A stretch of DNA of 64,000 nucleotides from a virus, in the IMG/VR virus record IMGVR_UViG_3300045988_162176, positions 32,001 to 96,000 of that record; one strand, given 5' to 3'. The translations under genes and the position numbers were made by a program. Shown piece by piece: positions 29,020-64,000 of this stretch. Positions within the stretch are counted from its first letter, which is position 1. Each line of letters starts with the position of its first letter. The notes beneath the pieces are model-generated. The model had not been told where the DNA came from, searched no databases, and was given only the letters and a program-made list of their open reading frames with translations.

Positions 29020-29200
29020 AGAAATTGAAATCCTTACGGATAATTCTTACTGCTTCATAATATATGCTTTCACGATTATAAATAATCCGCTATTCGCAGG
29101 TCCTTGTATATTCCACAGTCGTAAATTCCCGAAATAGCCTTCGGTACATACTTATGATTGCTTAATTATACAATTTCATAAGTTAAAGCATCTCTCAAAT
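29020..29200 (-). ncRNA. probable TnpB omega-RNA (reRNA) scaffold
   Basis: By analogy with characterised TnpB loci, the guide RNA overlaps the 3' end of tnpB and the right end; the region is visibly G+C-richer and hairpin-rich (e.g. CCGAAGGCTATTTCGG). Confidence 0.45.
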
Positions 29201-30317
29201 TAAGACTTGCATTGAAATCTCTATCTGCAATATAACCACATGAACAGTAGTATACTCTGTCTGAAAGTTTTAAGTCTTTATTAATATTACCACAACAATG
29301 ACATAATTTAGAAGAGGGATAAAATCTATCTACAATTCTTAATTCAATATCATTTTCGGCACATTTAACTTTTAATTTTGTTCTAAATTCATAAAACTTT
29401 TGTGCGGCAATAGCTTTTGAAAGATACTTATTCTTCATCATACCTGATATATCTAAATTTTCAATAGTTATATAAGATGGCTTGGTTTTTACTATCTCAG
29501 CTATTATTTTATTGATATAATCAGTTCGAATATTAGTTATTTTATGATAAAGTTTTTGTACTTTAAGTTTTTGTTTTTGTATATTTTTTTGAGTGCTGCC
29601 TCCTTTCTTAAAATTTTCATATTTACGAGAAAGACATCGTTGTTCTCTTCGTAATTGTTTTTCTATTTTTTTTATTTCCCTTGATTTGTTGATATTTTTA
29701 TATATTTTACCATTTGAAATAACGGCAAAATCTTTCAAACCCAAATCAATTCCTATACCTTCATTAAAATTGTGCGCAATTTGAATATTTGGCATCTCTA
29801 CTAAAACAGATACAAAATATTTATTTGCTTTAATAGATACTGTGCCGCTCTTAATTTTCAAACCGCTTTTAGATACTGGTATATAACCTTTTTCTTTTAA
29901 ACGAACCCATCCCAAACTTGGAATTTTAATTCTATGTCTTTCACAAAGACAATCGGTTAAATTATTTTTAACAAAATACATTTTTACATCAGATTTTCCT
30001 TTTTTCTTAAATTTAGGATAACCTGATTGATGTTTAAAAAATTTTGTAAAAGCAGCATATCCATCTTCAATAGATTTTTTTACTGCTTTTGAATATACTT
30101 CTTTAATCCATATTTTGTCAGGATTGTTTGGAATATATTCATTATTAAGCCATAAACTAAAACTTTTTCCTGTTACAAATTTTTTATTTCGGTCATATAA
30201 TTCTTTATTATAAGACAAATAAAAATTGTAAATATATCTACAAGTCCCAATTGTTTTATTAATTTGAATCTTTTGTTCTTTTGTTGGATTTATTTCCGTT
30301 TTAAAACTTTTTAACAT
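29166..30317 (-). CDS. tnpB: TnpB (IS200/IS605-family RNA-guided nuclease, OrfB)
   Basis: 383 aa; N-terminal FKTEINPTKEQ; RuvC motifs IGIDLG, ITIENL, ADRDFNASLNL; zinc finger CHCCG...CSCG. Confidence 0.9.
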   Translation of the reverse strand: MLKSFKTEINPTKEQKIQINKTIGTCRYIYNFYLSYNKELYDRNKKFVTGKSFSLWLNNEYIPNNPDKIWIKEVYSKAVKKSIEDGYAAFTKFFKHQSGYPKFKKKGKSDVKMYFVKNNLTDCLCERHRIKIPSLGWVRLKEKGYIPVSKSGLKIKSGTVSIKANKYFVSVLVEMPNIQIAHNFNEGIGIDLGLKDFAVISNGKIYKNINKSREIKKIEKQLRREQRCLSRKYENFKKGGSTQKNIQKQKLKVQKLYHKITNIRTDYINKIIAEIVKTKPSYITIENLDISGMMKNKYLSKAIAAQKFYEFRTKLKVKCAENDIELRIVDRFYPSSKLCHCCGNINKDLKLSDRVYYCSCGYIADRDFNASLNLRDALTYEIV

Positions 30318-49678: not shown

Positions 49679-49749
49679 AGCGGCGACTTCGAATCGAACG
49701 AGCATTTCACGGGTTAGAGCCGTGCGCATTGACCATTATACTACGCCGC
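49679..49749 (-). tRNA. suppressor tRNA, anticodon CTA (reads UAG)
   Basis: GCGGCGT AG TATAATGGTCAATGCG C ACGGC(CACGG) CTCTAAC CCGTG...TCGCCGC; perfect 5-bp anticodon stem, loop CT-CTA-AC; the T stem pairs only 3 bp; no encoded CCA. Confidence 0.7.
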
Positions 49750-49860: not shown

Positions 49861-49937
49861 AAAGCTAGACTCATTTTTCAAAACATTTGTAATCCCAAAT
49901 CACAAGTCTCTAAATAATTGCTGTAAGAGTCTACTTT
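49861..49937 (-). ncRNA. E-element 1 (simple)
   Basis: AAAG TAGACTC TTACAGCAA ..45 nt.. GAGTCTA G CTTT; ends 9 nt before tRNA-Arg(TCT). Confidence 0.6.
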
Positions 49938-49954
49938 ATTTTTTTATTTATAAA

Positions 49955-50090
49955 TGGTGGGAATGGAGTGACTCGAACACTCAATTTCCCGATTTGGTGT
50001 TTTAGACAAGTCTTGCACTTGCATTTGAAGTTTTACTTTTAAACTACTAAAACATAAGTCGGGCCCTCTGACCAATTGAGATACATCCCC
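49955..50090 (-). tRNA. tRNA-Ile(TAT)-like interrupted by a 59-nt insertion in the anticodon loop
   Basis: GGGGATG..CCCGA CTTAT[59 nt]AA TCGGG AAATT GAGTG TTCGAGT CACTC CATTCCC A CCA; all four stems pair. Confidence 0.7.
49995..50053 (-). ncRNA. tRNA-shaped insertion (I-type element I1) inside the tRNA-Ile anticodon loop
   Basis: GTTTTAG TA GTTT AAAAGTA AAAC ... CAAGT GCAAG ACTTG . CTAAAAC ACCA: 7-bp acceptor-like helix, D-like and T-like hairpins, 3' ACCA. Confidence 0.6.
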
Positions 50091-50100
50091 ATATAAAATC

Positions 50101-50192
50101 CTAGACACCATATAAAAATCTAAAAAAGTATTTATTCCAATTAAATATATTTCCCAGTATTTTTATTTTAATTGCTGTAAGTGTCTACTTTT
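50101..50192 (-). ncRNA. E-element 2 (simple)
   Basis: AAAAG TAGACAC TTACAGCAA ... GTGTCTA G; ends 10 nt before the interrupted tRNA-Ile. Confidence 0.6.
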
Positions 50193-50204
50193 AACATTAC
50201 TAAT

Positions 50205-50274
50205 CTAAACCCTATCCATAATCTTTTTTTCAAGCAAAAATTAAGTAGTTAAATTGCTGTAAGGGTTTACTTTT
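50205..50274 (-). ncRNA. E-element 3 (simple)
   Basis: AAAAG TAAACCC TTACAGCAA ... GGGTTTA G; directly upstream of E2. Confidence 0.6.
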
Positions 50275-50326
50275 AAATCATCAATAACTTACCATCTTGT
50301 TTGTAGTACTCCAAACAATTCAATCT

Positions 50327-50392
50327 TGCACCGTGGGGGATTCGAACCCCTCTTAAGCCCTCCGTCGAGCGACCCCAACCTTGGTACGGCAC
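50327..50392 (-). ncRNA. tRNA-like element (acceptor stem + T arm, non-canonical body)
   Basis: GTGCCGT...AGGGG TTCGAAT CCCCC ACGGTGC A; only about 66 nt; no convincing D or anticodon arms. Confidence 0.4.
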
Positions 50393-50399
50393 TTATAAA

Positions 50400-50540
50400 C
50401 TAGACGCATAATACTAACAAAGGAGAATCATGAAAGCATCATAAACTAATTAGCAAGGAACAATACCCAAAATCTTTTTTTAAATATTAGAATTTTTTTA
50501 TAGAATTTGATTTTTATTATTGTTTGCTGTAAGCGTCTAC
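50400..50540 (-). ncRNA. E-element 4 (long AT-rich interior)
   Basis: G TAGACGC TTACAGCAA ..110 nt.. GCGTCTA G. Confidence 0.55.
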
Positions 50541-50565
50541 GTTAGATAATTTGAATTGTTGCTTA

Positions 50566-50646
50566 TGGCAGGGATGGAAGGATTCGAACCTTCGAAAAAA
50601 ACTCATAGAGTCAAAGTCTACTGCCTTACCGCTTGGCTACACCCCT
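50566..50646 (-). tRNA. tRNA-Gln(TTG)-like with a type-II-style D arm and an 11-nt unstructured variable region
   Basis: AGGGGTG TA GCC AAGCGGTAA GGC A GTAGA CTTTGAC TCTAT GAGTTTTTTTC GAAGG TTCGAAT CCTTC CATCCCT G CCA. Confidence 0.65.
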
Positions 50647-50653
50647 ATATATT

Positions 50654-50780
50654 TTCCTTAGCTGGTGGTTCCGATTCGCCCATCCAGAACTCCCTACTTG
50701 AGTGCCATTCTATACTCATTAGAGGCTTTCCGACTGAAGGGTATTTTAATTTATTTATCGTCTTTTAAACTACTAAGGAA
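50654..50780 (-). ncRNA. free-standing I-type tRNA-like spacer RNA (I3)
   Basis: 8-bp closing helix TTCCTTAG/CTAAGGAA, then TA GTTT AAAAG..., the same start as the two anticodon-loop insertions; 3' hairpin CTGGATGG..CCACCAG. Confidence 0.5.
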
Positions 50781-50781
50781 T

Positions 50782-50856
50782 TGGAGCAGAAGACGGGAAT
50801 CGAACCCGCACCTACGACCTCGGAAGCCGTTATTCTCACCATTAAACCACTTCTGC
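50782..50856 (-). tRNA. tRNA-Arg(CCG)
   Basis: Canonical 75-nt cloverleaf, loop TTCCGAG, encoded CCA; first gene after promoter 50887-50915. Confidence 0.9.
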
Positions 50857-50886
50857 AAGGTTGGTTTATCTCTCAACCACATCTTA

Positions 50887-50915
50887 AGTATAACATATAC
50901 TTTTCATCTTGTCAA
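50887..50915 (-). promoter_or_regulatory. promoter of tRNA/E-element operon (Arg-CCG to Sup-CTA)
   Basis: TTGACA-17-TATACT. Confidence 0.65.
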
Positions 50916-51106
50916 GTACTTTTTAAAATTTCTTTTTGGAAGATTTTTTCGTTCAAATTAAGGAGGACAAAAACTTTTTGATACCAAAACAACTCAAGAC
51001 CAAGAAGTTCACAAAGAGCATCAACATCTTTCATTGTATACTTGTCTTTCTTTAAAGCTTTAATTTTTTCAACAATTTCCTCTTCTAAGAATAAAAATTC
51101 GTCCAT
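50912..51106 (-). CDS. hypothetical small protein inside the tRNA island
   Basis: 64-aa ORF; RBS AAGAGGA. Confidence 0.55.
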   Translation of the reverse strand: MDEFLFLEEEIVEKIKALKKDKYTMKDVDALCELLGLELFWYQKVFVLLNLNEKIFQKEILKST

Positions 51107-51143
51107 AATAAAAATCCTCTTTTATTTGGGGAAAAATTCTAAA

Positions 51144-51216
51144 ATGAAGTGGTTGGAATCGAACCAACGACCAGCGAAGATACCCCAACGCCGCTCTACC
51201 CCTGAGCTACACTTCA
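51144..51216 (-). tRNA. atypical tRNA or tRNA pseudogene (defective anticodon arm)
   Basis: Good acceptor, D (GCTC AGGGGTA GAGC) and T (GTTGG TTCGATT CCAAC) arms, but the anticodon arm has only GCG/CGC pairing around TTGGGGTATCTT. Confidence 0.45.
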
Positions 51217-51217
51217 A

Positions 51218-51292
51218 TGGAGCTGGATGAGAATTTTGAAATCTCGACTTCCACTTTACAAGAGTGGCGCTCTGCCTCTGAGCTAATCCAGC
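51218..51292 (-). tRNA. tRNA-Thr(TGT)
   Basis: 75-nt cloverleaf, loop CTTGTAA, encoded CCA. Confidence 0.85.
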
Positions 51293-51317
51293 AAATAAAG
51301 GACTAAACAAATAGTCC

Positions 51318-51833
51318 TTATCCACGAGTACGTTTCCAATAATTTGCCATTTTATATTCAGGCTTATTAGTAACTTCCTCGATAAACACTTCAGGAAAAG
51401 GCCAAACATAACTATTAGCTTCTTCCTCAGAATCAAATTCAACTTCGGCATAATAGAAGGCATTATCAGTTCCGCCATCTACAAGATTGAATTCAATTAA
51501 ATAACCATTATTGTAAAGACCTCTATAATCTTTTACAATAGGATTATAACCAAGTTCATTAAAACAGTCAAACAAAGAATTATCTGTAAGATTTGTTTCA
51601 ATTTCAGTACGAGTTAAAGTACCACCAGACTTGAAAGTAAGAGCATCTGGACGATAACCTTTGCCACTTTCAAACCAACGTCTTATACGAATTTCCTGTG
51701 AAATTTTTCCATCAGAATTATATTTGATATTAATATAAATAGTTTTAACAATTCCGACTTCATCAAAATCGACTTTAGGAAAACCAGAGATTAAAAACTT
51801 ACGTTCGATTTCGATTGAATTATTATTACTCAT
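51318..51833 (-). CDS. CYTH-domain (triphosphate tunnel metalloenzyme) protein
   Basis: 171 aa; N-terminal EIERKFL (ExExK signature), later acidic/basic beta-strand pattern (EIRIRR, YAEVEF). Confidence 0.75.
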   Translation of the reverse strand: MSNNNSIEIERKFLISGFPKVDFDEVGIVKTIYINIKYNSDGKISQEIRIRRWFESGKGYRPDALTFKSGGTLTRTEIETNLTDNSLFDCFNELGYNPIVKDYRGLYNNGYLIEFNLVDGGTDNAFYYAEVEFDSEEEANSYVWPFPEVFIEEVTNKPEYKMANYWKRTRG

Positions 51834-51852
51834 TTTTAATCTCCTTTTTCCA

Positions 51853-51947
51853 TGGCACTAGCGGTAAGATTCGAACTCACGAGACGGATACAAGCCGTCA
51901 CACATCATTTCAAGTGATGGCAGTTATGACCACTTCTGTACGCTAGC
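51853..51947 (-). tRNA. tRNA-Ser(TGA)
   Basis: 95 nt, long variable arm, loop CTTGAAA, encoded CCA. Confidence 0.85.
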
Positions 51948-51954
51948 ATTTATT

Positions 51955-52260
51955 TTATGTTTCAGAGAACAGATAGATACCTTTTTCTCCTACATCCTTT
52001 TTAATATCAGTAAATTCTTTATCACTAATTTGAGTCATTGGAGGGAATACACTTTTGAAAGAAGAACAACCATCTTTTTCAATAGTAACCATTTGTTTCT
52101 TACAAACTGGGCAAGTATAATTCCAAGATAAAAAATTAGTTTCATCCTTAGCAATTTTCATCTCTACTACTTGCATTATTCCCTTATTACAATGAGGACA
52201 TCTATAAACAAACTTTTTATTACTTGCTGTCTAATAAATGTAAGTCTTAAAATTAGTCAT
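51955..52260 (-). CDS. double zinc-ribbon small protein, TAG-recoded
   Basis: MTNFKTYIY*TASNKKFVYRCPHCNKGIMQVVEM...CPVCKK; 102 codons. Confidence 0.6.
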
Positions 52261-52284
52261 TAGAATTTACTTCCTTTTATTTTT

Positions 52285-52372
52285 TGGTTGCTGAAGCATG
52301 GGAGTCGAACCCACTATCGTACAGGGTATGAACCTGACATGATTTATAATTATCCGTTTCACTCGCCAGCAA
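52285..52372 (-). tRNA. atypical tRNA, probable anticodon CAT (Met/Ile2), with extra nucleotides between the D and anticodon arms
   Basis: Starts directly after the CCA of tRNA-Cys; TCAGG TTCATAC CCTGT arm, GTGGG TTCGACT CCCAT T arm, acceptor TTGCTG/CAGCAA, CCA. Confidence 0.5.
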
Positions 52373-52448
52373 TGGTGGACCTGACAAGACTTGAACTTGC
52401 GACTTCCTGCGTGCAAAGCAGACACTCTCCCAACTGAGTTACAGGCCC
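52373..52448 (-). tRNA. tRNA-Cys(GCA)
   Basis: Canonical 76-nt cloverleaf, loop TTTGCAC. Confidence 0.9.
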
Positions 52449-52989
52449 ATAATTAAACTATACTCCCAAATAGCAACAGAGTTTTTTACAAGAACTCTAT
52501 AACTTGGCTTTTGTTGTTCATCCTCAGCACCACCTGTTAGGAGCAATAAGCAGTATGCTCGGCTTATTGTGTTTTAAGGTTACATGACCCATAACCTCAA
52601 TACCTACCCCGATTTAGTTGCAGTAATCAGAGTTTTTGTTTGAACAAGTACGCAACCACTTGTCCCCGTAAACACGGCACAGACTTCTCCGTATAGCTTT
52701 TCGCTGTAGGTTTTTGATGTTACATTCGCACCCTAACATCTCTCGCCATATATCTGTGTTCTGCCCATGTGCGGCTCATAGCCTTTTTCAGCTTGTGACA
52801 GCTTACTTTGCGTTCGAGAACCATTCACTTGTTCTCTACTCCAAGACTTCGGACGGGCGTTGGGGCTTTAGCTTAACGGACTAAAGGTGAGTTCAAATAT
52901 ATGAAACACCGACGAGGCTTTAGCCATCCTTGCTGAATCGGGCAGTTTAATATAAGTTATATTCTCTGTCTGCCAATTGATATATAACT
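52449..52989 (-). ncRNA. large (about 0.54 kb) structured RNA between tRNA-Leu(CAA) and tRNA-Cys (L2)
   Basis: No ORF on the minus strand; markedly G+C-richer; many local and long-range complementary segments. Confidence 0.55.
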
Positions 52990-53074
52990 TGGTGGCTAAG
53001 GTGGGACTTGAACCCACATCTCTTTCGAGGGTTGTACTTGAAGCAACTGCGTATGCCAATTTCGCCACTCAGCC
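52990..53074 (-). tRNA. tRNA-Leu(CAA)
   Basis: 85 nt, long variable arm, loop TTCAAGT, TTCAAGT T-loop, CCA. Confidence 0.85.
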
Positions 53075-53087
53075 ATAATAATTAATA

Positions 53088-53209
53088 CTAGACACGTTTT
53101 TTTTGATATCGGTCATCCAGACATCCCCCGAAGGAGACGGAAGAATCGAACTTCCCCGTTTAATTTTCCATATTAAAGAATCAAGTAATTTTGCTGTGCG
53201 TGTCTACTT
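53088..53209 (-). ncRNA. E-element 5 with a closed-acceptor tRNA-like domain
   Basis: AAG TAGACACG CACAGCAA ... GGAAG TTCGATT CTTCC GTCTCC TTCG GGGGAT ... CGTGTCTA G; ends 12 nt before tRNA-Leu(CAA). Confidence 0.6.
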
Positions 53210-53260
53210 GAAAGGAATTTATATTTGCCTATTAGAAAAATAGGAGCGTCAATCTATTAA

Positions 53261-53392
53261 CTAGACTCATTTTACAAAATCTGTTGCTCTACCAGTTGAG
53301 CTAACTCCCGATGGTCGGGAGCAGAGGATTCGAACCTCCAACACACAGGCCCATAGCATTTGTGATTGTAAAGTTGCTGTTAGAGTCTACTT
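53261..53392 (-). ncRNA. E-element 6 enclosing the permuted tRNA-Gln
   Basis: AAG TAGACTC TAACAGCAA C TTTACAA ... [permuted tRNA] ... TTGTAAA AT GAGTCTA G. Confidence 0.6.
53273..53349 (-). tRNA. circularly permuted tRNA-Gln(TTG)-like module (3' half, CCA, T, 5' half) inside E-element 6
   Basis: CCTGT GTGTT GGAGG TTCGAAT CCTCT GCTCCCG A CCA T CGGGAGT TA GCTC AACTGGTA GAGC A ACAGA TTTTGTA; the acceptor halves are mutually complementary. Confidence 0.6.
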
Positions 53393-53466
53393 GAAAGGAA
53401 TGCTTTTATGAACAATAAAAAATGAACATTAGCTTACAAATAAATTTGTATCTTTACCATGTTTTT

Positions 53467-53495
53467 ACTATAACATAAAATTTTCATTTTGTCAA
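53467..53495 (-). promoter_or_regulatory. promoter of the E6-E5-tRNA-Leu-L2-tRNA-Cys unit
   Basis: TTGACA-17-TATAGT. Confidence 0.65.
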
Positions 53496-53518
53496 GAATT
53501 TTAAAACAAAAATTTTAC

Positions 53519-53603
53519 TGGTGGGTGAGGAAGGTGCCGACCCTTCTACTCCGTTAGGAAAGAGTTTTACAGACTCCCGTGTTTGCCGATTCACTACTCA
53601 CCT
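53519..53603 (-). tRNA. tRNA-Tyr(GTA)
   Basis: 85 nt, long variable arm, loop CTGTAAA; unusual T-loop GTCGGCA. Confidence 0.75.
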
Positions 53604-53633
53604 ATTTAATTATTTTCCTTTTTTAGAAAGGGG

Positions 53634-53698
53634 CTAGACGCTTTTTGTGTATTCTTATTTAACAGATAAGTACATTTAAATTGCTGTAAGCGTCTACT
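53634..53698 (-). ncRNA. E-element 7 (simple, with an anticodon-arm-like hairpin)
   Basis: AG TAGACGC TTACAGCAA ... CTTAT CTGTTAA ATAAG ... GCGTCTA G. Confidence 0.55.
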
Positions 53699-53732
53699 AT
53701 TGAAGTCATTACAAAATTAGCATTTCTGCTAT

Positions 53733-53808
53733 TGGTGCTCATGGAGGGACTCGAACCCTCGACAGACGGCTTAAAAGGCCGCTACTCTACCAACTGAGTT
53801 ACATGGGC
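53733..53808 (-). tRNA. tRNA-Lys(TTT)
   Basis: 76 nt, loop CTTTTAA, one C-A mismatch in the acceptor stem. Confidence 0.85.
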
Positions 53809-53815
53809 ATAAATA

Positions 53816-53951
53816 CTAGAGACATTGTTGTTATGGACTCCTGCCTTAAACCACTTGGCTACATACTTCAACTGAAGACGTTCGGATTCGAACCGAAGAA
53901 TGGGAGTTTGGCTTCTAACATACTTTCAGAATTGCTGTTAGTCTCTACTTT
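53816..53951 (-). ncRNA. E-element 8 with a closed-acceptor tRNA-like domain
   Basis: AAAG TAGAGAC TAACAGCAA ... ACTCC CATTC TTCGG TTCGAAT CCGAA CGTCTTC AGTT GAAG.. GCC AAGTGGTTTAA GGC A GGAGT ... GTCTCTA G. Confidence 0.6.
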
Positions 53952-54119
53952 ATAAATATCTTATTGAAAGGAAATTATTCATATCAGATAGAGAGAAAGG
54001 AGAAATAATATCTCGTCAAATAATTAATTCTTAACCCTTCGATAGATTTAAGTTCCCCTCATTTAAATCCGATAAAACTTACTCACACTATCATAAGAAC
54101 GGATTTCTGATTTGAATAA

Positions 54120-54195
54120 TGGTACTCGGTACGGGGTTCGAACCCGTGCTACTGACGTGAAAGGCCAGTGTCTTAGCCCACTTGACTAACCGAGC
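54120..54195 (-). tRNA. tRNA-Glu(TTC)
   Basis: 76 nt, loop CTTTCAC. Confidence 0.85.
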
Positions 54196-54203
54196 ATATT
54201 AAC

Positions 54204-54324
54204 CTAGACTCTTTTGCGTATTATTCACCACAGAGCGCCCTCTGACGAGAATCGAACTCGCTAATGATTGTTTTGCAGACAATTGTGTTAACCTTTTTAA
54301 GAATTTGCTGTAAGAGTCTACTTT
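54204..54324 (-). ncRNA. E-element 9 with a closed-acceptor tRNA-like domain
   Basis: AAAG TAGACTC TTACAGCAA ... GCGAG TTCGATT CTCGT CAGAG GGCG CTCTG TGG... GAGTCTA G; ends 8 nt before tRNA-Glu. Confidence 0.6.
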
Positions 54325-54353
54325 ATTATTCAGGAGGTTTTACCTATGCACTT

Positions 54354-54382
54354 ATTATAACATATCATCTTTAAGATGTCAA
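54354..54382 (-). promoter_or_regulatory. promoter of the E9-tRNA-Glu-E8-tRNA-Lys-E7-tRNA-Tyr unit
   Basis: TTGACA-17-TATAAT. Confidence 0.65.
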
Positions 54383-54494
54383 CCACTTATTAAAATTTTC
54401 TTTTTGCTTTTTATCTTTTTGAGAAGTTTTTATTTTGCTCTTTTCTTAAGATGTATTTATCTTACCACACTTTTAGATTTCTGTCAAGACTTTA

Positions 54495-54887
54495 TTAGAA
54501 ATTTTCTTTTTCGAAATGATTAGCAAAAGCTATATAATTTTGACTTTTAATAAGCTCCTCAAAAACCTCTACAGGAGGCTCAACAAAGTTTCTAATAAGG
54601 TCTACTAATTCTATCATAGAATTAGCTTCGAGGGTAAAGATTAAACCATCATATGGAATACATCTATAAACCCATTTGCCTGACGTACTTTGATAACAAT
54701 CGGCATTAGTCCAAACTTGAGTAGCATCTAAAATACGAGATTCCCAAGGATATTTAATAATTTCAGAACCTCTTTTATACCAATAATTAAATTCTTTATC
54801 TTTTAAAATATCATTGGTTTCAAGCTCGCACTCGTCGCCATTACAAATAGAATAATGACCGACAATTTTAAATGAAGAAGTATCCAT
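54495..54887 (-). CDS. hypothetical protein
   Basis: 130-aa ORF. Confidence 0.7.
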   Translation of the reverse strand: MDTSSFKIVGHYSICNGDECELETNDILKDKEFNYWYKRGSEIIKYPWESRILDATQVWTNADCYQSTSGKWVYRCIPYDGLIFTLEANSMIELVDLIRNFVEPPVEVFEELIKSQNYIAFANHFEKENF

Positions 54888-55159
54888 TACTCAGTAACCT
54901 CAGCGTAAGTTAATTCCATAATATCAGGCTTAACGGGATAAAATTCACCCTTAATTCCCTTAACAATGTAATCTCCTACAGAAGCACAGTGATAACCTTC
55001 AAGAGTATAAATAATAAGATTCTTTTTAATTCCCTTCATTGTATGTTCAGTAGTAACACAACAATGAGCGCCAACGAAACTTGTAATTTCTTCTTCGTTA
55101 TCGCCAGTCCAGATAATTGCTTGAATAGCAATAGGTTTCTTAATATATGTCTTAATCAT
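54887..55159 (-). CDS. hypothetical small protein
   Basis: 90-aa ORF. Confidence 0.7.
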   Translation of the reverse strand: MIKTYIKKPIAIQAIIWTGDNEEEITSFVGAHCCVTTEHTMKGIKKNLIIYTLEGYHCASVGDYIVKGIKGEFYPVKPDIMELTYAEVTE

Positions 55160-55175
55160 ATCTCTTCACCTTGAC

Positions 55176-55472
55176 TCATCTATATTTATACTTAAGTTGA
55201 CAAGACTTCAACCAAATCCAAAACAAAAGAGAAGCGTCAATTCCATCTACTTCATTCATAATGCGATAATTATCAGAATCTTTTTCAGGATAGCCATAAA
55301 CTACTTGTGCATCATAGCACTAAACAAGATACTTACAATTTGTCTTAGATATAATAGCAAGCTCACTTATATAATTAAATTTATCAACTTTCTTTTCGTA
55401 ATAAGTCCCGAATTTATCTGAAGAGATAAGTTTATATCCATGTTTAGCAAACTGTTTGTCAATATAATCCAT
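55176..55472 (-). CDS. hypothetical small protein, TAG-recoded
   Basis: MDYIDKQFAKHGYKLISSDKFGTYYEKKVDKFNYISELAIISKTNCKYLV*CYDAQVVYGYPEK...; TAG at 55320-55322; 99 codons. Confidence 0.55.
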
Positions 55473-55835
55473 AAAAATACCCTTTTATTTTATTAAATAT
55501 ATAAGGAACAAAAACTGATAACTACTGACAGACCAGCTTTTCACTTATCTGTCCTCGGTTTGGCTGAGGAGGGGCTATTCCTTATAAGGGGCTTACACTC
55601 AACTATCTTGGTCATTTTCATTATCAGTTTTGCTCATTGCATAAGGGTTTAACGTACCCAGTTAAGCAAAGCAACGGTCTTTCTATTGTTACCAGTCCAT
55701 CAGACTTGGAGGGCGGTTCAGTGTCGAATACATTGTAACCAGCTAAACTGTATTCCAAGATAAGTTTCGTACTATATCTTACGGATTTCTTGTTTTTTTA
55801 AAAAGACATCAAGAAATATCTAACCATTCTGTCTT
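55473..55835 (-). ncRNA. structured non-coding region L4
   Basis: About 360 nt without an ORF between E13 and the CDS start at 55472; hairpins (GACAGA..TCTGTC, TCCTC..GAGGA, repeated AGCCCCT). Confidence 0.35.
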
Positions 55836-55936
55836 TTGGAGCGGCATCGAAGAATCGAACTCCAAACATAATAAAAGTATTGTCCATGGCTACTTTTATT
55901 ATTACACCAGTTGCCGCATATTTGCTGTCTCTCCAA
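55836..55936 (-). ncRNA. E-like element 13 enclosing a normal-order tRNA-like RNA with a 12-bp arm
   Basis: TTGGAG AG ACAGCAA ATAT GCGGCAA CTGGTG TAATAATAAAAGTA GCCATGGACAA TACTTTTATTATG TT TGGAG TTCGATT CTTCG ATGCCGC TCCAA. Confidence 0.4.
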
Positions 55937-56010
55937 GCTGTCACCGCTAATATGGTTGTAGGTTCTGGACGGTCTGAACTTAGGTGCGCCATACACACAT
56001 CCTAACATTA

Positions 56011-56123
56011 AGCGATACTCCATCTGTTAGGCGAACTTCCATCTTTATAAGACGGTATCGTAGTTACTGGACCTCATAATTGGATTCGAACCAACTTCCT
56101 CTCCCGATGTGGCTGTTATCGCT
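56011..56123 (-). ncRNA. E-element 12 (divergent) with a tRNA-like domain
   Basis: AGCGATA ACAGCC ... GTTGG TTCGAAT CCAAT TTATGAG ..21 nt.. CTTATAA ... TATCGCT. Confidence 0.45.
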
Positions 56124-56509
56124 AAGGAGCTACCTTAGTGTTTATTCAACATCAGTTATCGAGAATGCACCATTACACTAATGGGGATATAAATGTTATA
56201 GACCTTTTAACTATAACTCACAGGCTTTCCCTTATTCAAACAAGGTGGCGGGACGTGTGCTGTGTTTTTAAAAGAAAGTCCTTGTTATACTTTTTCTTTC
56301 AAGGATTTAGTGGTAAGAACTTTTCTTGACCATAGGCGTTCTCAAACCTACTCCTTTACCTATATGCTCAACATAAATTAGGTTAAGCATCTCAACCTTG
56401 AGGTCAACTGGGGTATCTTACAGCCGTTCGGTTTATTTTTAGTTTGAGTAAACCTTCCTCAAACACTCCTTCATCCACTTTTTTACAAGGATACGGAATC
56501 CACGAGTTT
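56124..56509 (-). ncRNA. structured non-coding region L3
   Basis: About 385 nt without an ORF between tRNA-Ser(GCT) and E12; dense hairpins (GTTTGAG..CTCAAAC, ATGCTTAAC..GTTGAGCAT, GTTATAG..CTATAAC). Confidence 0.4.
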
Positions 56510-56597
56510 TGGCGCAGATAACAGGATTCGAACCTGTATTACCTTACGGTAAGCGGCTGTAGCAGAGCCGTGAGATAGCCAATTACTCCATATCTGC
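56510..56597 (-). tRNA. tRNA-Ser(GCT)
   Basis: 88 nt, long variable arm CTTACCGTAAGG, loop CTGCTAC. Confidence 0.85.
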
Positions 56598-56609
56598 ATA
56601 ATGAGCAAT

Positions 56610-56737
56610 CTTGACACTTTTTTCTAGCCAACCACGGTTAACCATTCCTTGCTCAAGGGATACGTTAATAAGGAGTCGAACCTTACACGACGTTATTCCA
56701 AAAACATAAAATAAATTTGCTGTGAGTGTCAACTTTT
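56610..56737 (-). ncRNA. E-element 10 with a tRNA-like domain
   Basis: AAAAG TTGACAC TCACAGCAA ... TAAGG TTCGACT CCTTA TTAAC..CCTT GAGC AAGG..GTTAA ... GTGTCAA G; ends 12 nt before tRNA-Ser(GCT). Confidence 0.55.
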
Positions 56738-57497: not shown

Positions 57498-57631
57498 TGG
57501 AGCAAGATACGAGATTCGAACTCGCCCTTACGGTTTTGGTCCTTTAAGTAAGACTTGAACTTACATCAATGGTTTTTCATTAAACTATTAAAGGGGAAGA
57601 CCGTCGTGCTAACCACTAACACTAATCCTGC
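57498..57631 (-). tRNA. tRNA-Gly(TCC)-like interrupted by a 58-nt insertion in the anticodon loop
   Basis: GCAGGAT TA GTGT TAGTGGTTA GCAC G ACGGT CTTCC[58 nt]AA ACCGT AAGG GCGAG TTCGAAT CTCGT ATCTTGC T CCA. Confidence 0.7.
57537..57594 (-). ncRNA. tRNA-shaped insertion (I-type element I2) inside the tRNA-Gly anticodon loop
   Basis: CCTTTAA TA GTTT AATGA AAAC CATTGAT GTAAG TTCAAGT CTTAC TTAAAGG ACCA; homologous to I1 with a covarying 7-bp helix. Confidence 0.6.
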
Positions 57632-57781
57632 ATATATGATGCCACTCACGCATGAATGGCATCAAACCCCACGCTCCGTAGAGACCTCATGCTAGCCTGA
57701 TAGGTTTCCTACTAAGATACCAGTAAAGTAATGAGCTTAACCAGACAAACGTAGACTTAACCAGTGGAGTATCTAGCTTAA
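57632..57781 (-). ncRNA. structured leader upstream of the interrupted tRNA-Gly
   Basis: 150 nt without an ORF; hairpin GATGCCA..TGGCATC; repeated CTGGTTAAG. Confidence 0.3.
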
Positions 57782-58254: not shown

Positions 58255-58728
58255 TTACTTTTTCACCGAAGTCACGCCATTAAAATCATACAAACGTACA
58301 ATATGGCTTAGTCCTAAAGTGTCAGAAATATCAGCACTAATGATAGACCAATCTCCACCAGCAAGACCACACCCAATCATATAAGGCATAGCAATCTCTT
58401 CTCCAATAGGAATCATTTCACGAATCTTAAGAAGACATTCATGAAAATATTCATAGTTGGTGTTTACATTTGGTCCACCAATGCCAATCTGAGAAAACAT
58501 ATTAAGAAAAACTTTATCTTTGTTTTCCTCAATTCGAAGAACTTTACCATAAAGCTCTTCAGGAGTATGATAACTACAAAACTTATTATACTCCAAATAA
58601 ACATGAGGATAATTCTTCTTAATTTGAAGAGCAACACCAGCGCCCATTACACCAAAGGTATTAGCCTGATGACAAATATACTTTGCCGAAGTCTTAAGGA
58701 CATCGCCTTGAATAATAGACACTGACAT
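58255..58728 (-). CDS. macro-domain protein (ADP-ribose binding/hydrolase fold)
   Basis: 157 aa; IIQGDVL...YICHQANTFGVMGAGVALQIKKNYP...IGCGLAGGDW. Confidence 0.75.
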   Translation of the reverse strand: MSVSIIQGDVLKTSAKYICHQANTFGVMGAGVALQIKKNYPHVYLEYNKFCSYHTPEELYGKVLRIEENKDKVFLNMFSQIGIGGPNVNTNYEYFHECLLKIREMIPIGEEIAMPYMIGCGLAGGDWSIISADISDTLGLSHIVRLYDFNGVTSVKK

Positions 58729-62004: not shown

Positions 62005-62304
62005 CTAAAATTCTGACTTTTTCAATGTAGGAGTAATATCTAAATTAGAATTTGCACTTGTACGAGTATAAGTAGAACCAGCCCAATCTGACCCCCAGAT
62101 GTCAGCCTTGGTAGTAACATACTTCTTATATTTGCAAGAAAGTTTTACAGAAAGACACTCAGGATAATCTTTAATACTTTTTTTGAGCTCATTAAAAGAT
62201 TCTTCTGCTTTGACCACATCCTCTGTGTATTTACAAATTGCTTCGTTTTCACATCCTGAACAAACACTTGGAATATATTCTCGACCTGTATTAAGTACCA
62301 TCAT
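62005..62304 (-). CDS. hypothetical Cys-containing protein
   Basis: 99-aa ORF; ends at TAG (read-through adds 2 codons). Confidence 0.65.
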   Translation of the reverse strand: MMVLNTGREYIPSVCSGCENEAICKYTEDVVKAEESFNELKKSIKDYPECLSVKLSCKYKKYVTTKADIWGSDWAGSTYTRTSANSNLDITPTLKKSEF

Positions 62305-62818
62305 TGTTTTCTTCTCCTTCCTTATAATATTCTTGTAAAATCAAATTATAACATAGCGTATTAGGATGATAATATGGATTATCATAAATCTGACTATCAT
62401 CCCCAGTAAAACATTTCATAATACCAGCACAAACACCAGAAGAACGACTAATGCCAGCATTACAATGAACAATAATTACATCAACCTTATCCCACCACTT
62501 ATTGACAAAATCAATAACTTTTTTAGCATCTTCTTTTGTCATCAGTTGATAAATACGAGACTCATAAACAAAACCATCTGAATTAGTATAGTTTTCTACA
62601 ATTAGACCTTCATCCTTCTTCCAGTACTGCATACCCTTATAGGGCTGAATATCATCAAAGAAAAGAGATAATTGAGCCTTAATATTATTAAATTTATTAG
62701 GAAGTTGACGCACGCCAATCTCGATAGAATCATTAATGCTAATTACAACAGAATTCTCTTCATGAGAACCATAGCTATATTTAACACAATCTCTACGACT
62801 CATAACCTTAAACTGCAT
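62291..62818 (-). CDS. Cys-based (PTP/dual-specificity-like) phosphatase
   Basis: 175 aa; active-site signature VHCNAGISRS (HCx5R[ST]). Confidence 0.75.
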   Translation of the reverse strand: MQFKVMSRRDCVKYSYGSHEENSVVISINDSIEIGVRQLPNKFNNIKAQLSLFFDDIQPYKGMQYWKKDEGLIVENYTNSDGFVYESRIYQLMTKEDAKKVIDFVNKWWDKVDVIIVHCNAGISRSSGVCAGIMKCFTGDDSQIYDNPYYHPNTLCYNLILQEYYKEGEENNDGT

Positions 62819-63275: not shown

Positions 63276-64000
63276 TTAAACAGACTCATTGGTAAATACC
63301 TTCTGACTAATAAAGTCTTTACCTTCTTCACTTGTTAAAATTGGCATTTCATAATCAAGAATCCACTTATAACGAATAGCCTCCTGACCATCTTTGCCAA
63401 TAACAGTAGTAGGAACACGATATGCACAAGTACCACGTTTCTCTACTGTTGTATAATCGTTCCAGTTTACACCCTTTTCAGTAAACATCTTATCCTGTAA
63501 TTTGGTAGTATTAATACCATGAAGTTCTTTTTGAGAATACAAAGATTGAGCAACTGCCTGAATAGAATTTCGAGTACAATCCTGCTGTCTCCAAACAAAA
63601 TAATTATGCACTTCAAAGGCAGGGACAACAAATACTCTACTATCAAAGGTGGGCATTTCTTTTCCCTTACGAACCATTTTCCAATCGTAAGAATCTTGAT
63701 TCATATTAAAGATATCTAAGGTTGTATCAATAATAGTATTCTCGGCAAAATAATTATTAAACCAAAGAGTACAAAGAGCCGCAGATGTACTAACAATTTT
63801 TTGAATATTATTGTCAAACCATGGCTGAGAATTTCTTTCGCTCTGAATCATGACAAGAGAAATTTCATCTGACTCAACATAACCAAACTTAACATTTGGA
63901 ATAATTTCACAGAGCTTAAGCATAGTCTGTTGCATGGTTTTAACAAAAATAGGGTCAAAAGGTTTCTTCATACCACGGCAGAATGAATGAAAATGAGCTC
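63276..64000 (-). CDS. Thg1-like protein (tRNA-His guanylyltransferase family 3'-5' nucleotidyltransferase), N-terminus beyond the window
   Basis: GYVESDEISLV, FDSRVFVVP..EVHNYFVWRQQDCTRNS match Thg1/TLP motifs; the frame stays open upstream of the listed Met to position 64000 (..AHFHSFCRGMKKPFDP). Confidence 0.8.
   Translation of the reverse strand, partial: AHFHSFCRGMKKPFDPIFVKTMQQTMLKLCEIIPNVKFGYVESDEISLVMIQSERNSQPWFDNNIQKIVSTSAALCTLWFNNYFAENTIIDTTLDIFNMNQDSYDWKMVRKGKEMPTFDSRVFVVPAFEVHNYFVWRQQDCTRNSIQAVAQSLYSQKELHGINTTKLQDKMFTEKGVNWNDYTTVEKRGTCAYRVPTTVIGKDGQEAIRYKWILDYEMPILTSEEGKDFISQKVFTNESV

What the first reader, a model, noticed from the sequence alone, without database searches (positions are those of the whole stretch)
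53088..56737. Closed-acceptor, permuted tRNA-like domains inside E5, E8, E9, E10 and E12
Each of these elements contains, in this order:
- a canonical T arm (for example GGAAG TTCGATT CTTCC, TTCGG TTCGAAT CCGAA, GCGAG TTCGATT CTCGT)
- a hairpin where the acceptor stem would be, capped by a short loop (GTCTCC-UUCG-GGGGAT in E5, CAGAG-GGCG-CTCTG in E9)
- a GG-containing D-like segment

E8 also keeps a 5-bp anticodon-stem analogue (GGAGT/ACTCC). The order T arm, closed acceptor, D arm is what results if a tRNA is circularised at the acceptor end and opened at the anticodon. It is the architecture reported for bacterial YrlA Y RNAs.

These RNAs cannot be aminoacylated because they have no free CCA. 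They would still present the tRNA elbow, so they could bind tRNA-recognising enzymes such as RNase P, modification enzymes, or host anticodon nucleases or other tRNA-targeting defences.
Basis: partly seen in the sequence, partly recalled or inferred. Interest (0 to 1): 0.8.

Follow-up and report, generated by a model that had tools for sequence, protein, structure and literature searches.

The report
Phage Y-RNA-like tRNA mimics on conserved stem
These are small phage RNAs that copy the upper half of a tRNA and sit on a conserved stem carrying the motif ACAGCAA; that stem travels with a Ro60-like protein gene in hundreds of phages, pointing to a widespread RNA-protein particle that has not been described.

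Summary
All five elements carry a textbook T arm: 24 strict T arms on this strand against about 1 expected. In E5, E8, E9 and E12 a closed hairpin follows the T arm directly. Only E8, and the unlisted E6, has a canonical D arm. E5 has a mini hairpin with a conserved GG. E9 and E12 are degenerate. E10 is not permuted.

Compensatory changes in orthologues support the E5 and E8 arms. Across 46 relatives, all 16 pairs of the T / closed-acceptor / D fold covary.

Every element sits in one scaffold: an 8-9 bp stem, then ACAGCAA, with a conserved unpaired 3' G. A copy lies in the 5' UTR of a 572-aa gene in this window (DUF2828 plus vWA) whose model matches only Ro60 over its full length.

The same scaffold flanks this gene family in divergent metagenomic phages and in FelixO1, A511, mycobacteriophage Faith1, and Staphylococcus, Campylobacter, Enterococcus and Bacillus phages.

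So the YrlA / Y RNA reading is right in kind. However, these RNAs fail Rfam YrlA, lack its GNCGAA motif and pair with a different Ro-like family.

I rate this a new variant of a known kind. Binding to the protein is inferred, not shown.

The parts
53088..53207 (-). E5: outer stem P1 GUAGACACG/CGUGUCUAG plus ACAGCAA; T arm 53139-53155; closed hairpin GUCUCC-UUCG-GGGGAU 53123-53138; mini D-like hairpin GUC-UGGAU-GAC 53112-53122
   Evidence: Orthologues at 80% identity change the T stem GGAAG/CUUCC to UAAGG/CCUUA and the hairpin GUCUCC/GGGGAU to AUCUUC/GAAGAU, both compensatory. Not detected by model R1 or by Rfam YrlA.
53261..53390 (-). P1, ACAGCAA, inner stem UUUACAA/UUGUAAA, AAUGCU motif, T arm 53323-53339, 7-bp closed acceptor with loop A-CCA-U 53304-53322, canonical D arm 53286-53301
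   Evidence: Rfam YrlA 39.8 bits (gathering score 69), E 5e-7, model positions 1-114. The minimum-energy fold reproduces every arm, z = -2.7. Seed of model R1.
53816..53948 (-). E8: P1 UAGAGAC/GUCUCUA plus ACAGCAA; anticodon-stem analogue ACUCC (53903-53907) / GGAGU (53837-53841); T arm 53881-53897; closed acceptor 53862-53880 (7 bp, 1 bulge); D arm 53843-53859
   Evidence: Model R1, built without E8, gives 26.4 bits, E 4e-4, full length. The minimum-energy fold reproduces the permuted cloverleaf. All 27 pairs are paired in 8 orthologues, with compensatory changes in the anticodon analogue, T stem and acceptor.
54204..54321 (-). E9: P1 plus ACAGCAA; anticodon-like (YrlA 'V') hairpin AUUGU-CUGCAAA-ACAAU 54267-54283; T arm 54245-54261; closed hairpin CAGAG-GGCG-CUCUG 54231-54244; degenerate D-like GUG-AAUAAUA-CGC 54216-54228
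   Evidence: One compensatory T-stem change (G-C to A-U in L059), and a loop triplet that varies GCA/UGA/GAA among relatives 95-99% identical. Weak partial Rfam tRNA match, 19.7 bits.
55833..55937 (-). E10: variant outer stem UUGGAG/CUCCAA plus ACAGCAA; NORMAL-order tRNA-like fold: acceptor GCGGCA (within 55905-55917) / UGCCGC (55841-55846), GG-containing D remnant, 12-bp long hairpin 55869-55904, T arm 55848-55864
   Evidence: No closed hairpin follows the T arm, so the stated order is not met.
56610..56733 (-). E12: P1 GUUGACACU/AGUGUCAAG (compensatory relative to GUAGAC/GUCUAG) plus ACAGCAA; T arm 56669-56685; long interrupted hairpin 56638-56668; CC-GUGGUU-GG 56628-56637
   Evidence: Paralogue of E5, 75% identity over the 5' 68 nt. 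The GG is not conserved in L078. Only the T arm is seen by R1, 7.8 bits.
37771..37832 (-). E0: scaffold-only copy (UUAGACUCUC-ACAGCAA...GAGUCUAG) in the 5' UTR of the Ro60-like gene, after a TTGACA...TATAGT promoter
   Evidence: The same position is occupied in relatives L120-L134.
36030..37748 (-). 572-aa Ro60-like protein gene (Pfam DUF2828 + DUF7788 + weak vWA; PHROG 850 'RNA-binding protein')
   Evidence: For the AlphaFold model (pLDDT 68.5), the five best PDB matches are all Ro60, E 8e-6 to 1e-4, 510-610 aligned columns.
49865..50540 (-). E1-E4: scaffold-only or non-tRNA-like copies (49865-49934, 50101-50188, 50205-50270, 50400-50540)
53634..53697 (-). E7: scaffold-only copy

Best explanation
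The elements are phage non-coding RNAs of the Y RNA kind, built from two modules.

**Module 1, the handle.** It is shared by all 12 or more copies in the window. It is an 8-9 bp stem formed by the two ends of the RNA (consensus 5' AGACnCnn / nnGnGUCU 3'), followed on the 5' strand by the invariant single-stranded heptamer ACAGCAA, and on the 3' strand by a conserved unpaired G. I infer that this handle is the binding site of the phage's Ro60-like protein (DUF2828-vWA, 36030-37748).

**Module 2, the cargo.** It is variable. In E6 and E8 it is a complete tRNA 'top half' (T arm, acceptor stem closed by a loop, D arm), joined to the handle through what would be the anticodon stem. This is the YrlA architecture. 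E5, E9 and E12 are eroded versions that keep the T arm and the closed hairpin. E10 attaches a normal-order tRNA-like fold through its acceptor end. E0-E4 and E7 carry no tRNA-like cargo.

**Proposed mode of action.** The particle would use the tRNA-shaped cargo to engage tRNA-recognising factors. Candidates are RNase P, the CCA-adding enzyme, TruB or Dus, exonucleases such as PNPase, and host tRNA-targeting nucleases. The Ro-like ring would be held on the handle, so the RNA acts as tether or gate as in Ro60-Y RNA particles. The copy in the gene's own 5' UTR suggests feedback control of the protein's synthesis.

**What is shown:** the folds, their covariation, the scaffold, the Ro60-like fold of the protein, and the genomic linkage.

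**What is inferred:** physical binding, the partners, and the biological role.
For: **The scaffold is real.**
- TAGAC-N(2-8)-CAGCAA occurs 8 times against 0.14 expected.
- ACAGCAA starts at a fixed position in 11 of 12 elements and one base earlier in E10.
- The 8 stem pairs are 96-100% paired, each with 2-5 pair types. The 3' G is at least 90% conserved and unpaired in 42 of 52 sequences.

**The protein is Ro60-like.** The top five PDB fold matches are all Ro60. PHROG 850 is named 'RNA-binding protein'. Mycobacteriophage records name the homologue 'Ro-like RNA binding protein'.

**The RNA and the gene are linked.**
- In 80 loci fetched by protein alone, 76 strict elements lie on the gene strand and none on the other. 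Scrambled heptamers give 0-5.
- 44 of 55 distinct elements lie within 1 kb of the gene, where only 10.7% of flanking bases lie.
- Loci fetched by the RNA pattern alone carry the gene next to the pattern at 32-47% protein identity.
- The scaffold lies beside the gene in FelixO1, A511, Faith1, Staphylococcus S-CoN_Ph3, Campylobacter CP8, Enterococcus VRE9_2 and Bacillus PK-3.

**The tRNA-like fold is real.**
- Family alignment: 93% of cells paired, 16 of 16 pairs compensatory, slid controls 32-48%.
- E8. E5.
- E6 matches Rfam YrlA at 39.8 bits.

**Context.** tRNA-repair-type genes lie in the array: a Thg1-like gene and a macro-domain phosphatase.
Against: - No binding data exist.
- In this window the tRNA-like elements lie 15-19 kb from the Ro-like gene. 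Only E0 is adjacent to it.
- Phage genes here are almost all on one strand, so the strand bias alone is weak evidence.
- The Ro-like gene often sits next to tRNA arrays, so part of the linkage could be to the array rather than to the protein. However, A511 and Faith1 have the elements at the gene, not in the array.
- Six of 12 window elements end 7-13 nt before a tRNA, which also fits a processing role.
- The protein model is of moderate quality (pLDDT 68.5, TM 0.3-0.4), and sequence profiles do not reach Ro60.
- E5, E9 and E12 are not distinguishable from 'T arm only' by model R1.
- Thermodynamic z-scores are weak, -1.2 to -2.7.
Confidence: 0.6

Rival explanations
1. The stems are processing or stabilising punctuation of the polycistronic tRNA-array transcript: nuclease sites or protective leader hairpins placed just 5' of tRNAs and of one mRNA. 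On this view the tRNA-like inserts are decaying tRNA duplicates with no function of their own.
For: Six of 12 window elements end 7-13 nt upstream of a called tRNA. The FelixO1 copies lie between tRNAs with about 10-nt spacers. Several copies have no tRNA-like cargo. E9 and E12 look eroded.
Against: In A511 and Faith1 the elements flank the Ro-like gene rather than tRNAs. An invariant ACAGCAA and a conserved unpaired G across hosts from Mycobacterium to Listeria to Salmonella point to a specific, conserved ligand. Compensatory changes maintain the T arm and closed acceptor, which neutral decay would not do.
Confidence: 0.15
2. The scaffold is a functional RNA whose ligand is not the Ro-like protein. 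It could bind another phage or host factor, or be a small self-processing RNA. The gene linkage would then reflect shared regulation only.
For: No binding evidence exists. The motif differs from the known Ro60-binding motifs GGUCCGA and GNCGAA (PMC4201824). The window's array is far from the gene.
Against: The elements lie close to the gene across 32-97% protein identity and at least seven host genera. The tRNA-like cargo and the AAUGCU motif are shared with YrlA, a proven Ro60 ligand. No ribozyme family matches at E up to 5-10.
Confidence: 0.15
3. They are true circularly permuted (or split) tRNA genes. Their transcripts would be cut in the acceptor loop and joined or held together to give decoding tRNAs, as in the permuted tRNA genes of Cyanidioschyzon merolae (from my own knowledge).
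For: The E6 acceptor loop reads A-CCA-U on a perfect 7-bp stem, as expected from a tandem tRNA duplication. RNase P cutting and CCA addition of a closed acceptor is documented for M. smegmatis YrlA (PMC4201824).
Against: No element has an anticodon loop at the junction. The anticodon-stem analogue continues into the inner stem, ACAGCAA and P1. E5 and E9 have 5-6 bp stems capped by tetraloops without CCA. ARAGORN and Rfam tRNA do not call them. No RNA ligase was found among the ORFs scanned; only about 20 were scanned.
Confidence: 0.05
4. They are miniature mobile DNA elements with terminal inverted repeats (GTAGAC...GTCTAC) that happen to carry tRNA fragments.
For: They are repeated, similar in size and flanked by inverted repeats.
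Against: The arms differ between copies while staying complementary within each copy, which is RNA-type covariation. ACAGCAA is on one side only. Orientation is fixed relative to transcription. Orthologous positions are conserved between phages. No transposase is associated: the window's TnpB at 29166-30317 has its own RAGATH-18 RNA.
Confidence: 0.03

Closest known systems
YrlA (Y RNA-like A, Rfam RF02553), the tRNA-mimicking Y RNA bound by bacterial Ro60/Rsr (Chen et al. 2014, PMC4201824)
   Same: - The order is V hairpin, T arm, acceptor stem closed by a loop, then D arm.
- The 5' and 3' ends pair in a stem.
- An AAUGCU stretch precedes the tRNA-like domain (E6 and many relatives).
- The RNAs are encoded on the same strand as a Ro60-like gene, usually beside it, often in several copies.
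- The family includes members without a full tRNA-like domain, like YrlB.
   Different: - None reaches the Rfam gathering score (best 39.8 against 69).
- The Rsr-binding motif GNCGAAN0-1G is absent. An extra outer module is present instead: an 8-9 bp stem, ACAGCAA and a 3' G.
- The protein partner family is DUF2828/PHROG 850, not Pfam TROVE.
- There are at least 12 copies per genome, interleaved with tRNA genes.
- The same family also contains normal-order and open-acceptor topologies.
Thermus phage phiLo Ro60 with Yrl1/Yrl2 (PMC12135203), and the Ro60 plus Y RNA pairs of mycobacteriophages, CcrColossus and Bacillus phage G
   Same: A phage-encoded ring-plus-vWA protein with phage-encoded stem-bulge-stem RNAs next to its gene.
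   Different: Those use canonical TROVE Ro60 and a CGAA motif, with one or two RNAs. Here the motif and the protein family differ, and the RNAs form a large array.
Circularly permuted tRNA genes (Cyanidioschyzon merolae type; from my own knowledge)
   Same: The 3' half precedes the 5' half. The acceptor strands are joined through a short loop that can contain CCA (E6). The likely origin is tandem tRNA duplication.
   Different: No anticodon loop can be reconstituted, no bulge-helix-bulge junction is evident, and the ends are locked in a conserved protein-type handle.
Canonical phage tRNA genes of the same array
   Same: T-arm sequence, D-arm sequence (E6, E8), genomic location and strand.
   Different: No free acceptor end and no anticodon loop. 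Not called by ARAGORN or by Rfam tRNA at the gathering score.

Membership tests
YrlA (Rfam RF02553) | Scores at or above the family's gathering threshold (69 bits) with the Rfam covariance model | tested here: not met
   E6 scores 39.8 bits (E 5e-7) over the full model. E5, E8 and E9 give no match at E up to 10. E10 and E12 give no match at E up to 5. The FelixO1, A511 and Faith1 loci give no YrlA match at E up to 0.01.
YrlA (Rfam RF02553) | T stem-loop, then a stem-loop in the acceptor position, then a D stem-loop, with tRNA-like conserved nucleotides | tested here: met
   - Met for E6 and E8.
- Met by 46 distinct relatives with covariation in all 16 pairs.
- Only partly met by E5 (mini D hairpin).
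- Weakly met by E9 and E12.
- Not met by E10, which is in normal order.
YrlA (Rfam RF02553) | GNCGAAN0-1G motif near the 5' end (proposed Rsr contact; PMC4201824) | tested here: not met
   G.CGAA occurs in none of E0-E12. E6 has CACAAAUGCU where YrlA has GGCGAAUGCU. All elements carry ACAGCAA instead.
YrlA (Rfam RF02553) | Encoded within about 4 kb of, and on the same strand as, a Ro60 (TROVE) orthologue | tested here: inconclusive
   The strand is the same. E5-E12 lie 15-19 kb from the gene and only E0 is adjacent. The protein has a Ro60-like fold but matches Pfam DUF2828, not TROVE. In related phages the elements lie within 1 kb of the gene.
YrlA (Rfam RF02553) | Bound by Ro60/Rsr; pseudouridine 55 and dihydrouridine made by TruB and DusA | not testable with these tools
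   Needs immunoprecipitation and modification mapping.
Permuted tRNA genes | Joining the transcript's ends restores a complete anticodon stem-loop, giving a decoding tRNA | tested here: not met
   The ends form P1. Between P1 and the anticodon-stem analogue lie ACAGCAA and an inner stem, and no 7-nt anticodon loop is present.
Canonical tRNA | Detected by ARAGORN or by Rfam RF00005 at the gathering score, with a free acceptor end | tested here: not met
   None of E5, E6, E8, E9, E10 or E12 is called. E9 has only a 19.7-bit partial match.
Ro60 / TROVE protein family (for the 572-aa partner) | Helical-repeat ring followed by a vWA domain; recognisable by the Pfam TROVE profile | tested here: inconclusive
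   Fold search: the top five PDB matches are Ro60 over 510-610 columns, and there is a weak vWA match. There is no Pfam TROVE match, and no PDB sequence or profile match to Ro60.

The most novel reading that the evidence does not exclude
The stem-ACAGCAA-G handle is the cognate RNA of the DUF2828/PHROG 850 Ro60-like protein. Together they would form a very widespread phage ribonucleoprotein that has gone unrecognised. It is present in classical laboratory phages (FelixO1, Listeria A511, cluster L mycobacteriophages, and Staphylococcus, Campylobacter, Enterococcus and Bacillus phages) and in large gut phages.

On this reading one conserved handle displays a library of cargo modules. These include tRNA mimics in at least three chain topologies:
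- closed acceptor, permuted
- normal order, attached through the acceptor end
- open acceptor, with the handle in the anticodon position

The modules are interleaved with the phage's tRNA genes and would act in conflicts over tRNA.
Probability: 0.45. Interest if true: 0.85.

Novelty: new variant of a known kind. Interest (0 to 1): 0.72.

Why it matters
Ro60-Y RNA particles are known from animals, some bacteria and a few phages, but their biological role, and the reason bacterial Y RNAs mimic tRNA, remain unclear.

If this reading is right, a second and much larger Ro-like family has its own RNA partners with a simple, invariant recognition motif. That family covers 695 cultured phage records in INPHARED and thousands of metagenomic proteins. 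The system would also exist in easily handled phage-host pairs such as FelixO1/Salmonella, A511/Listeria and cluster L phages/M. smegmatis.

That would make several questions directly testable:
- what the tRNA-like module recruits
- why phages keep a dozen differently loaded copies among their tRNA genes
- whether these RNAs counter host attacks on tRNA

It also offers natural examples of one RNA fold in several circular permutations. And it gives a lead for the uncharacterised DUF2828 proteins of plants and other eukaryotes.

Tried and rejected
- **Megablast of the array against INPHARED phages:** no match.
- **Sequence and profile searches of the protein against PDB:** no Ro60 match. NCBIfam: nothing. 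Only the fold search linked it to Ro60.
- **Rfam, for the scaffold:** nothing at the gathering score, nor at E up to 5-10.
- **My model R1** (permuted T / acceptor / D, built from E6 and four distant relatives) is dominated by the canonical D arm. It found E8 but not E5, E9 or E12. It scored the obvious FelixO1 example at only 17 bits. It is therefore too narrow to be used as a negative test.
- **Free-energy z-scores** are weak, -1.2 to -2.7, and carry little weight.
- **Strand bias** (76 against 0) is of limited value because these phages transcribe nearly everything in one direction. I therefore added scrambled-motif controls and a proximity test.
- **Literature:** searches for DUF2828, 'Ro-like', phage Y RNA and permuted tRNA in phages found no description of this RNA. 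The supplementary tables of Chen et al. 2014, which list their 22 phages, are not held. I therefore cannot exclude that some of these phages were covered there.
- **Rejected readings:** ribozyme (no family match), terminator (no U run after the stem), mobile-element inverted repeats (arms covary per copy), and kink-turn (no tandem G-A pairs).
- **Not used:** the metagenome and GTDB genome scans.

Full report
**What is in the interval**

The window is phage-like, with nearly all genes on the minus strand. A tRNA array spans about 49.6-62 kb: ARAGORN tRNAs and Rfam gives 17 tRNA matches.

A repeated element is interleaved with these tRNAs. Read on the minus strand, it starts with GUAGAC-NNNN-ACAGCAA and ends with NNNN-GUCUAG. 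A variable insert of 40-120 nt lies between. The pattern TAGAC-N(2-8)-CAGCAA occurs 8 times against 0.14 expected.

With variant stems included there are at least 12 copies:
- E0: 37771-37832
- E1-E4: 49865-50540
- E5: 53088-53207
- E6: 53261-53390
- E7: 53634-53697
- E8: 53816-53948
- E9: 54204-54321
- E10: 55833-55937
- E12: 56610-56733

The finding's coordinates run from the 3' end of E5 to the 5' end of E12.

**Checking the observation**

T arms. A strict definition (5-bp stem, loop TTCRANY) gives 24 T arms on the minus strand, against about 1 expected per 64 kb. Ten lie outside called tRNAs, including one in each of E5, E6, E8, E9, E10 and E12.

Closed hairpin. In E5, E8, E9 and E12 a closed hairpin follows the T arm directly. 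In E10 it does not. There the T arm is followed by UGCCGC, which pairs with GCGGCA near the 5' end. E10 is therefore a normal-order tRNA-like fold whose acceptor stem stacks on the outer stem.

D-like segment. E5 has a 3-bp mini hairpin with UGG in the loop. In E9 the GG lies in a stem and the loop has none. In E12 the GG is lost in one orthologue.

The E8 anticodon-stem analogue ACUCC/GGAGU is real.

**Tests of the tRNA-like fold**

Rfam. The YrlA model matches E6 over its full length at 39.8 bits (E about 5e-7). That is below the gathering score of 69. It does not match E5, E8 or E9 even at E up to 10.

An independent model. I built model R1 of the T arm, closed acceptor and D arm from E6 and four distant relatives. 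In the window it finds E8 at 26.4 bits (E 4e-4, full length). E5, E9, E10 and E12 are not separated from the 15-23-bit background produced by ordinary tRNA T arms.

Orthologues in closely related IMG/VR phages supply covariation:
- For E8, all 27 proposed pairs are paired in 8 sequences. There are compensatory changes in the anticodon analogue (A-U to G-C, with a G-U intermediate), the T stem (U-A to C-G) and the closed acceptor (U-A to C-G). The acceptor also shows one single-sided change, G-U to A-U.
- For E5, the T stem changes from GGAAG/CUUCC to UAAGG/CCUUA and the hairpin from GUCUCC/GGGGAU to AUCUUC/GAAGAU.

Across the family, 46 distinct R1 matches are 93% paired. All 16 pairs show compensatory changes, against 32-48% pairing when the partners are slid. 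That alignment is fitted to the model, which favours the structure.

Thermodynamic folding reproduces the full permuted cloverleaf for E6 and E8.

**The scaffold and the Ro60-like gene**

E0 lies in the 5' UTR of a 572-aa ORF (36030-37748, minus strand), after a sigma-70-like promoter. The protein matches Pfam DUF2828 and DUF7788, with a weak vWA match, and PHROG 850 'RNA-binding protein'.

I built an AlphaFold model from 35 homologues (pLDDT 68.5). Its five best PDB matches are all Ro60, at E 8e-6 to 1e-4 over 510-610 aligned columns. The next matches are vWA proteins. Sequence profiles do not reach Ro60. The protein is therefore a remote Ro60 relative, not a Pfam TROVE member.

Linkage evidence:
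- In 80 IMG/VR loci fetched through the protein alone (44-97% identity), the strict scaffold occurs 76 times on the gene strand and never on the other. Four unrelated scrambled heptamers give 0-5.
- Among the non-close relatives, 44 of 55 distinct elements lie within 1 kb of the gene, where only 10.7% of flanking bases lie.
- R1 finds 91 permuted tRNA-like domains in these loci, many 300-700 nt upstream of the gene. Each of the 24 I inspected is preceded by ACAGCAA or a one-base variant, and many also by an AAUGCU-like stretch. That stretch corresponds to the CGAAUGCU region of YrlA.
- Conversely, loci fetched only through the RNA pattern carry the gene beside the pattern at 32-47% protein identity.

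**Cultured phages**

The protein family occurs in 695 INPHARED records. I inspected nine. Seven have the scaffold next to the gene, always on the gene strand:
- FelixO1: four copies among the tRNAs just downstream of ORF86. One has a T arm, a 7-bp closed acceptor and a D arm.
- Listeria phage A511: three copies in the 5' UTR of gp57.
- Mycobacteriophage Faith1: three copies just 3' of the annotated 'Ro-like RNA binding protein'. The middle one has a permuted tRNA-like domain (R1 35.4 bits).
- Staphylococcus S-CoN_Ph3, Campylobacter CP8, Enterococcus VRE9_2 and Bacillus PK-3.

Synechococcus phage B23 has variant motifs (UCAGCCA, UCAGCAA). It also has a 110-nt 'undetermined tRNA' with an open acceptor. 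In that RNA a local hairpin plus ACUGCAA replaces the anticodon loop.

The handle consensus is 5' AGACnCnn-ACAGCAA ... nnGnGUCU-W-G 3'. It has eight covarying pairs and a conserved unpaired 3' G.

**Topologies**

The family holds the same parts in different chain orders:
- Ends at the outer stem with the acceptor closed: E6, E8 and the FelixO1 and Faith1 examples.
- Ends at the outer stem with a normal-order tRNA-like fold attached through its acceptor: E10 and several IMG/VR elements.
- The outer stem closed as a local hairpin with the chain opened at the acceptor: B23, and probably the window's E11 candidate at about 56060-56190, which ends in ...UAUGAGG-U-CCA.

A tandem tRNA duplication would produce the permuted order. 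The A-CCA-U loop of E6 is what such a junction would leave. That origin is my inference.

**How it most likely works**

I commit to a Y-RNA-like particle. The stem-ACAGCAA-G handle binds the Ro60-like protein. The cargo, where tRNA-shaped, engages tRNA-recognising factors. The 5' UTR copies feed back on the protein's own synthesis. I put confidence in the RNA-protein pairing at about 0.6. The partners and the role are open.

Chen et al. 2014 (PMC4201824) showed that YrlA is modified by TruB and DusA. They also showed that the M. smegmatis RNA, with a 7-bp closed acceptor, is cut by RNase P and receives CCA in vivo. E5 and E9, with 5-6 bp stems and tetraloops, probably stay closed.

The array also holds a Thg1-like gene (63276-63971) and a macro-domain phosphatase (58255-58728). 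Both fit a tRNA-repair setting.

**Rivals**

- Processing punctuation of the array transcript. Six of 12 elements end 7-13 nt before a tRNA. Against this, A511 and Faith1 place the elements at the gene rather than at tRNAs, and the arms are maintained by compensatory change.
- A ligand other than the Ro-like protein.
- True permuted tRNA genes. No anticodon loop can be restored.
- Mobile inverted-repeat elements. The arms covary within each copy, and the motif is on one side only.

**Comparison and novelty**

The closest known system is Ro60 with YrlA, including its phage versions (PMC4201824, PMC12135203).

Features in common: the tRNA-like order, paired ends, the AAUGCU stretch, and encoding beside a Ro-like gene.

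Features that differ: all elements fail the Rfam threshold, the GNCGAA motif is absent, there is an extra invariant handle, the protein family is different, there are a dozen copies interleaved with tRNAs, and several topologies occur.

I found no description of this RNA in Rfam 15 or in the papers held. The phage list of Chen et al. is not available to me. I rate the finding a new variant of a known kind. The wider reading is a widespread, unrecognised Ro-like RNP in cultured phages, at a probability of about 0.45.

**Caveats**

- Nothing here shows binding or expression.
- The protein model is of moderate quality.
- Many loci are close relatives, so counts are not independent events.
- The scaffold scan required perfect arm complementarity, which biases the percentage paired, though not the diversity of pair types or the conserved non-pair.

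Noticed in passing
It has a 7-bp closed acceptor whose loop reads A-CCA-U, as if left by a tandem tRNA duplication. I predict it is an RNase P substrate.
   Followed up: yes
window 37771-37832 (-): A handle-only copy lies in the 5' UTR of the Ro60-like gene. A511 has three copies in the equivalent 5' UTR. This suggests autoregulation.
   Followed up: partly
window about 56060-56190 (-): Candidate E11: a tRNA-like RNA with D arm GUGU-AAUGGU-GCAU and T arm 56079-56095, ending in UAUGAGG-U-CCA. Its anticodon position holds a local hairpin CUAAGG-UAGC-UCCUUAG followed by ACAGCCA. It looks like an open-acceptor, unpermuted version of the same design, as in Synechococcus phage B23.
   Followed up: partly
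window 54267-54283 (-) and orthologues in L012, L013, L038, L044, L046, L059, L078: The anticodon-like loop of E9 reads CUGCAAA, CUUGAAA or CUGAAAA in phages whose E9 is otherwise 95-99% identical. The few differences cluster in the 'anticodon' triplet.
   Followed up: no
window 49865-56733 (-): Six of 12 elements (E1, E2, E5, E8, E9, E12) end 7-13 nt upstream of a called tRNA. The FelixO1 copies show the same spacing. RNase P cleavage of the tRNA would set the element's 3' end.
   Followed up: partly
window 49958-50090 (-) and 57500-57640 (-): Two tRNAs have long insertions in the anticodon region: about 65-70 nt in the first and about 65 nt in the second. The second insertion contains a nested mini T arm, GUAAG-UUCAAGU-CUUAC. 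Neither insertion carries ACAGCAA.
   Followed up: no
window 50325-50395 (-) and 52290-52365 (-): Two further uncalled tRNA-like pieces carry good or near-perfect T arms: GGGGUUCGAAUCCCC, and GUGGG-UUCGACU-CCCAU at 52298-52314. They lie directly after E4 and after tRNA-Ala respectively.
   Followed up: no
window 52450-52990 (-) and 55480-56500 (-); L201 4459-5010: These are long ORF-free stretches inside the array with no Rfam match. In A511 the equivalent position, between the tRNA array and the Ro-like gene, holds a sub-threshold ROOL RNA match (87.5 bits, gathering score 99.1).
   Followed up: no
window 49679-49749 (-): A tRNA with anticodon CUA (ARAGORN calls it 'Pyl'; Rfam tRNA 36.8 bits). 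It could be an amber suppressor, which hints at TAG recoding in this phage.
   Followed up: no
window 29047-30317 (-): A TnpB/IS605 OrfB gene (29166-30317) is followed by a RAGATH-18 RNA (29047-29119, 59.9 bits). This is probably its guide RNA and is unrelated to the finding.
   Followed up: no
window 63276-63971 (-), 58255-58728 (-), 62291-62818 (-): A Thg1-like tRNA-His guanylyltransferase, a macro-domain phosphatase and a dual-specificity-phosphatase-like gene lie within the tRNA array. Together they look like tRNA-repair-type equipment.
   Followed up: partly
L200 (FelixO1, AF320576.1 record 23.8-24.8 kb): Several small ORFs annotated 'unknown' in the 2001 FelixO1 record overlap the scaffold RNAs and tRNAs. 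ORF94 (locus 8414-8644), on the opposite strand, overlaps the fourth scaffold element. They are probably not genes.
   Followed up: no
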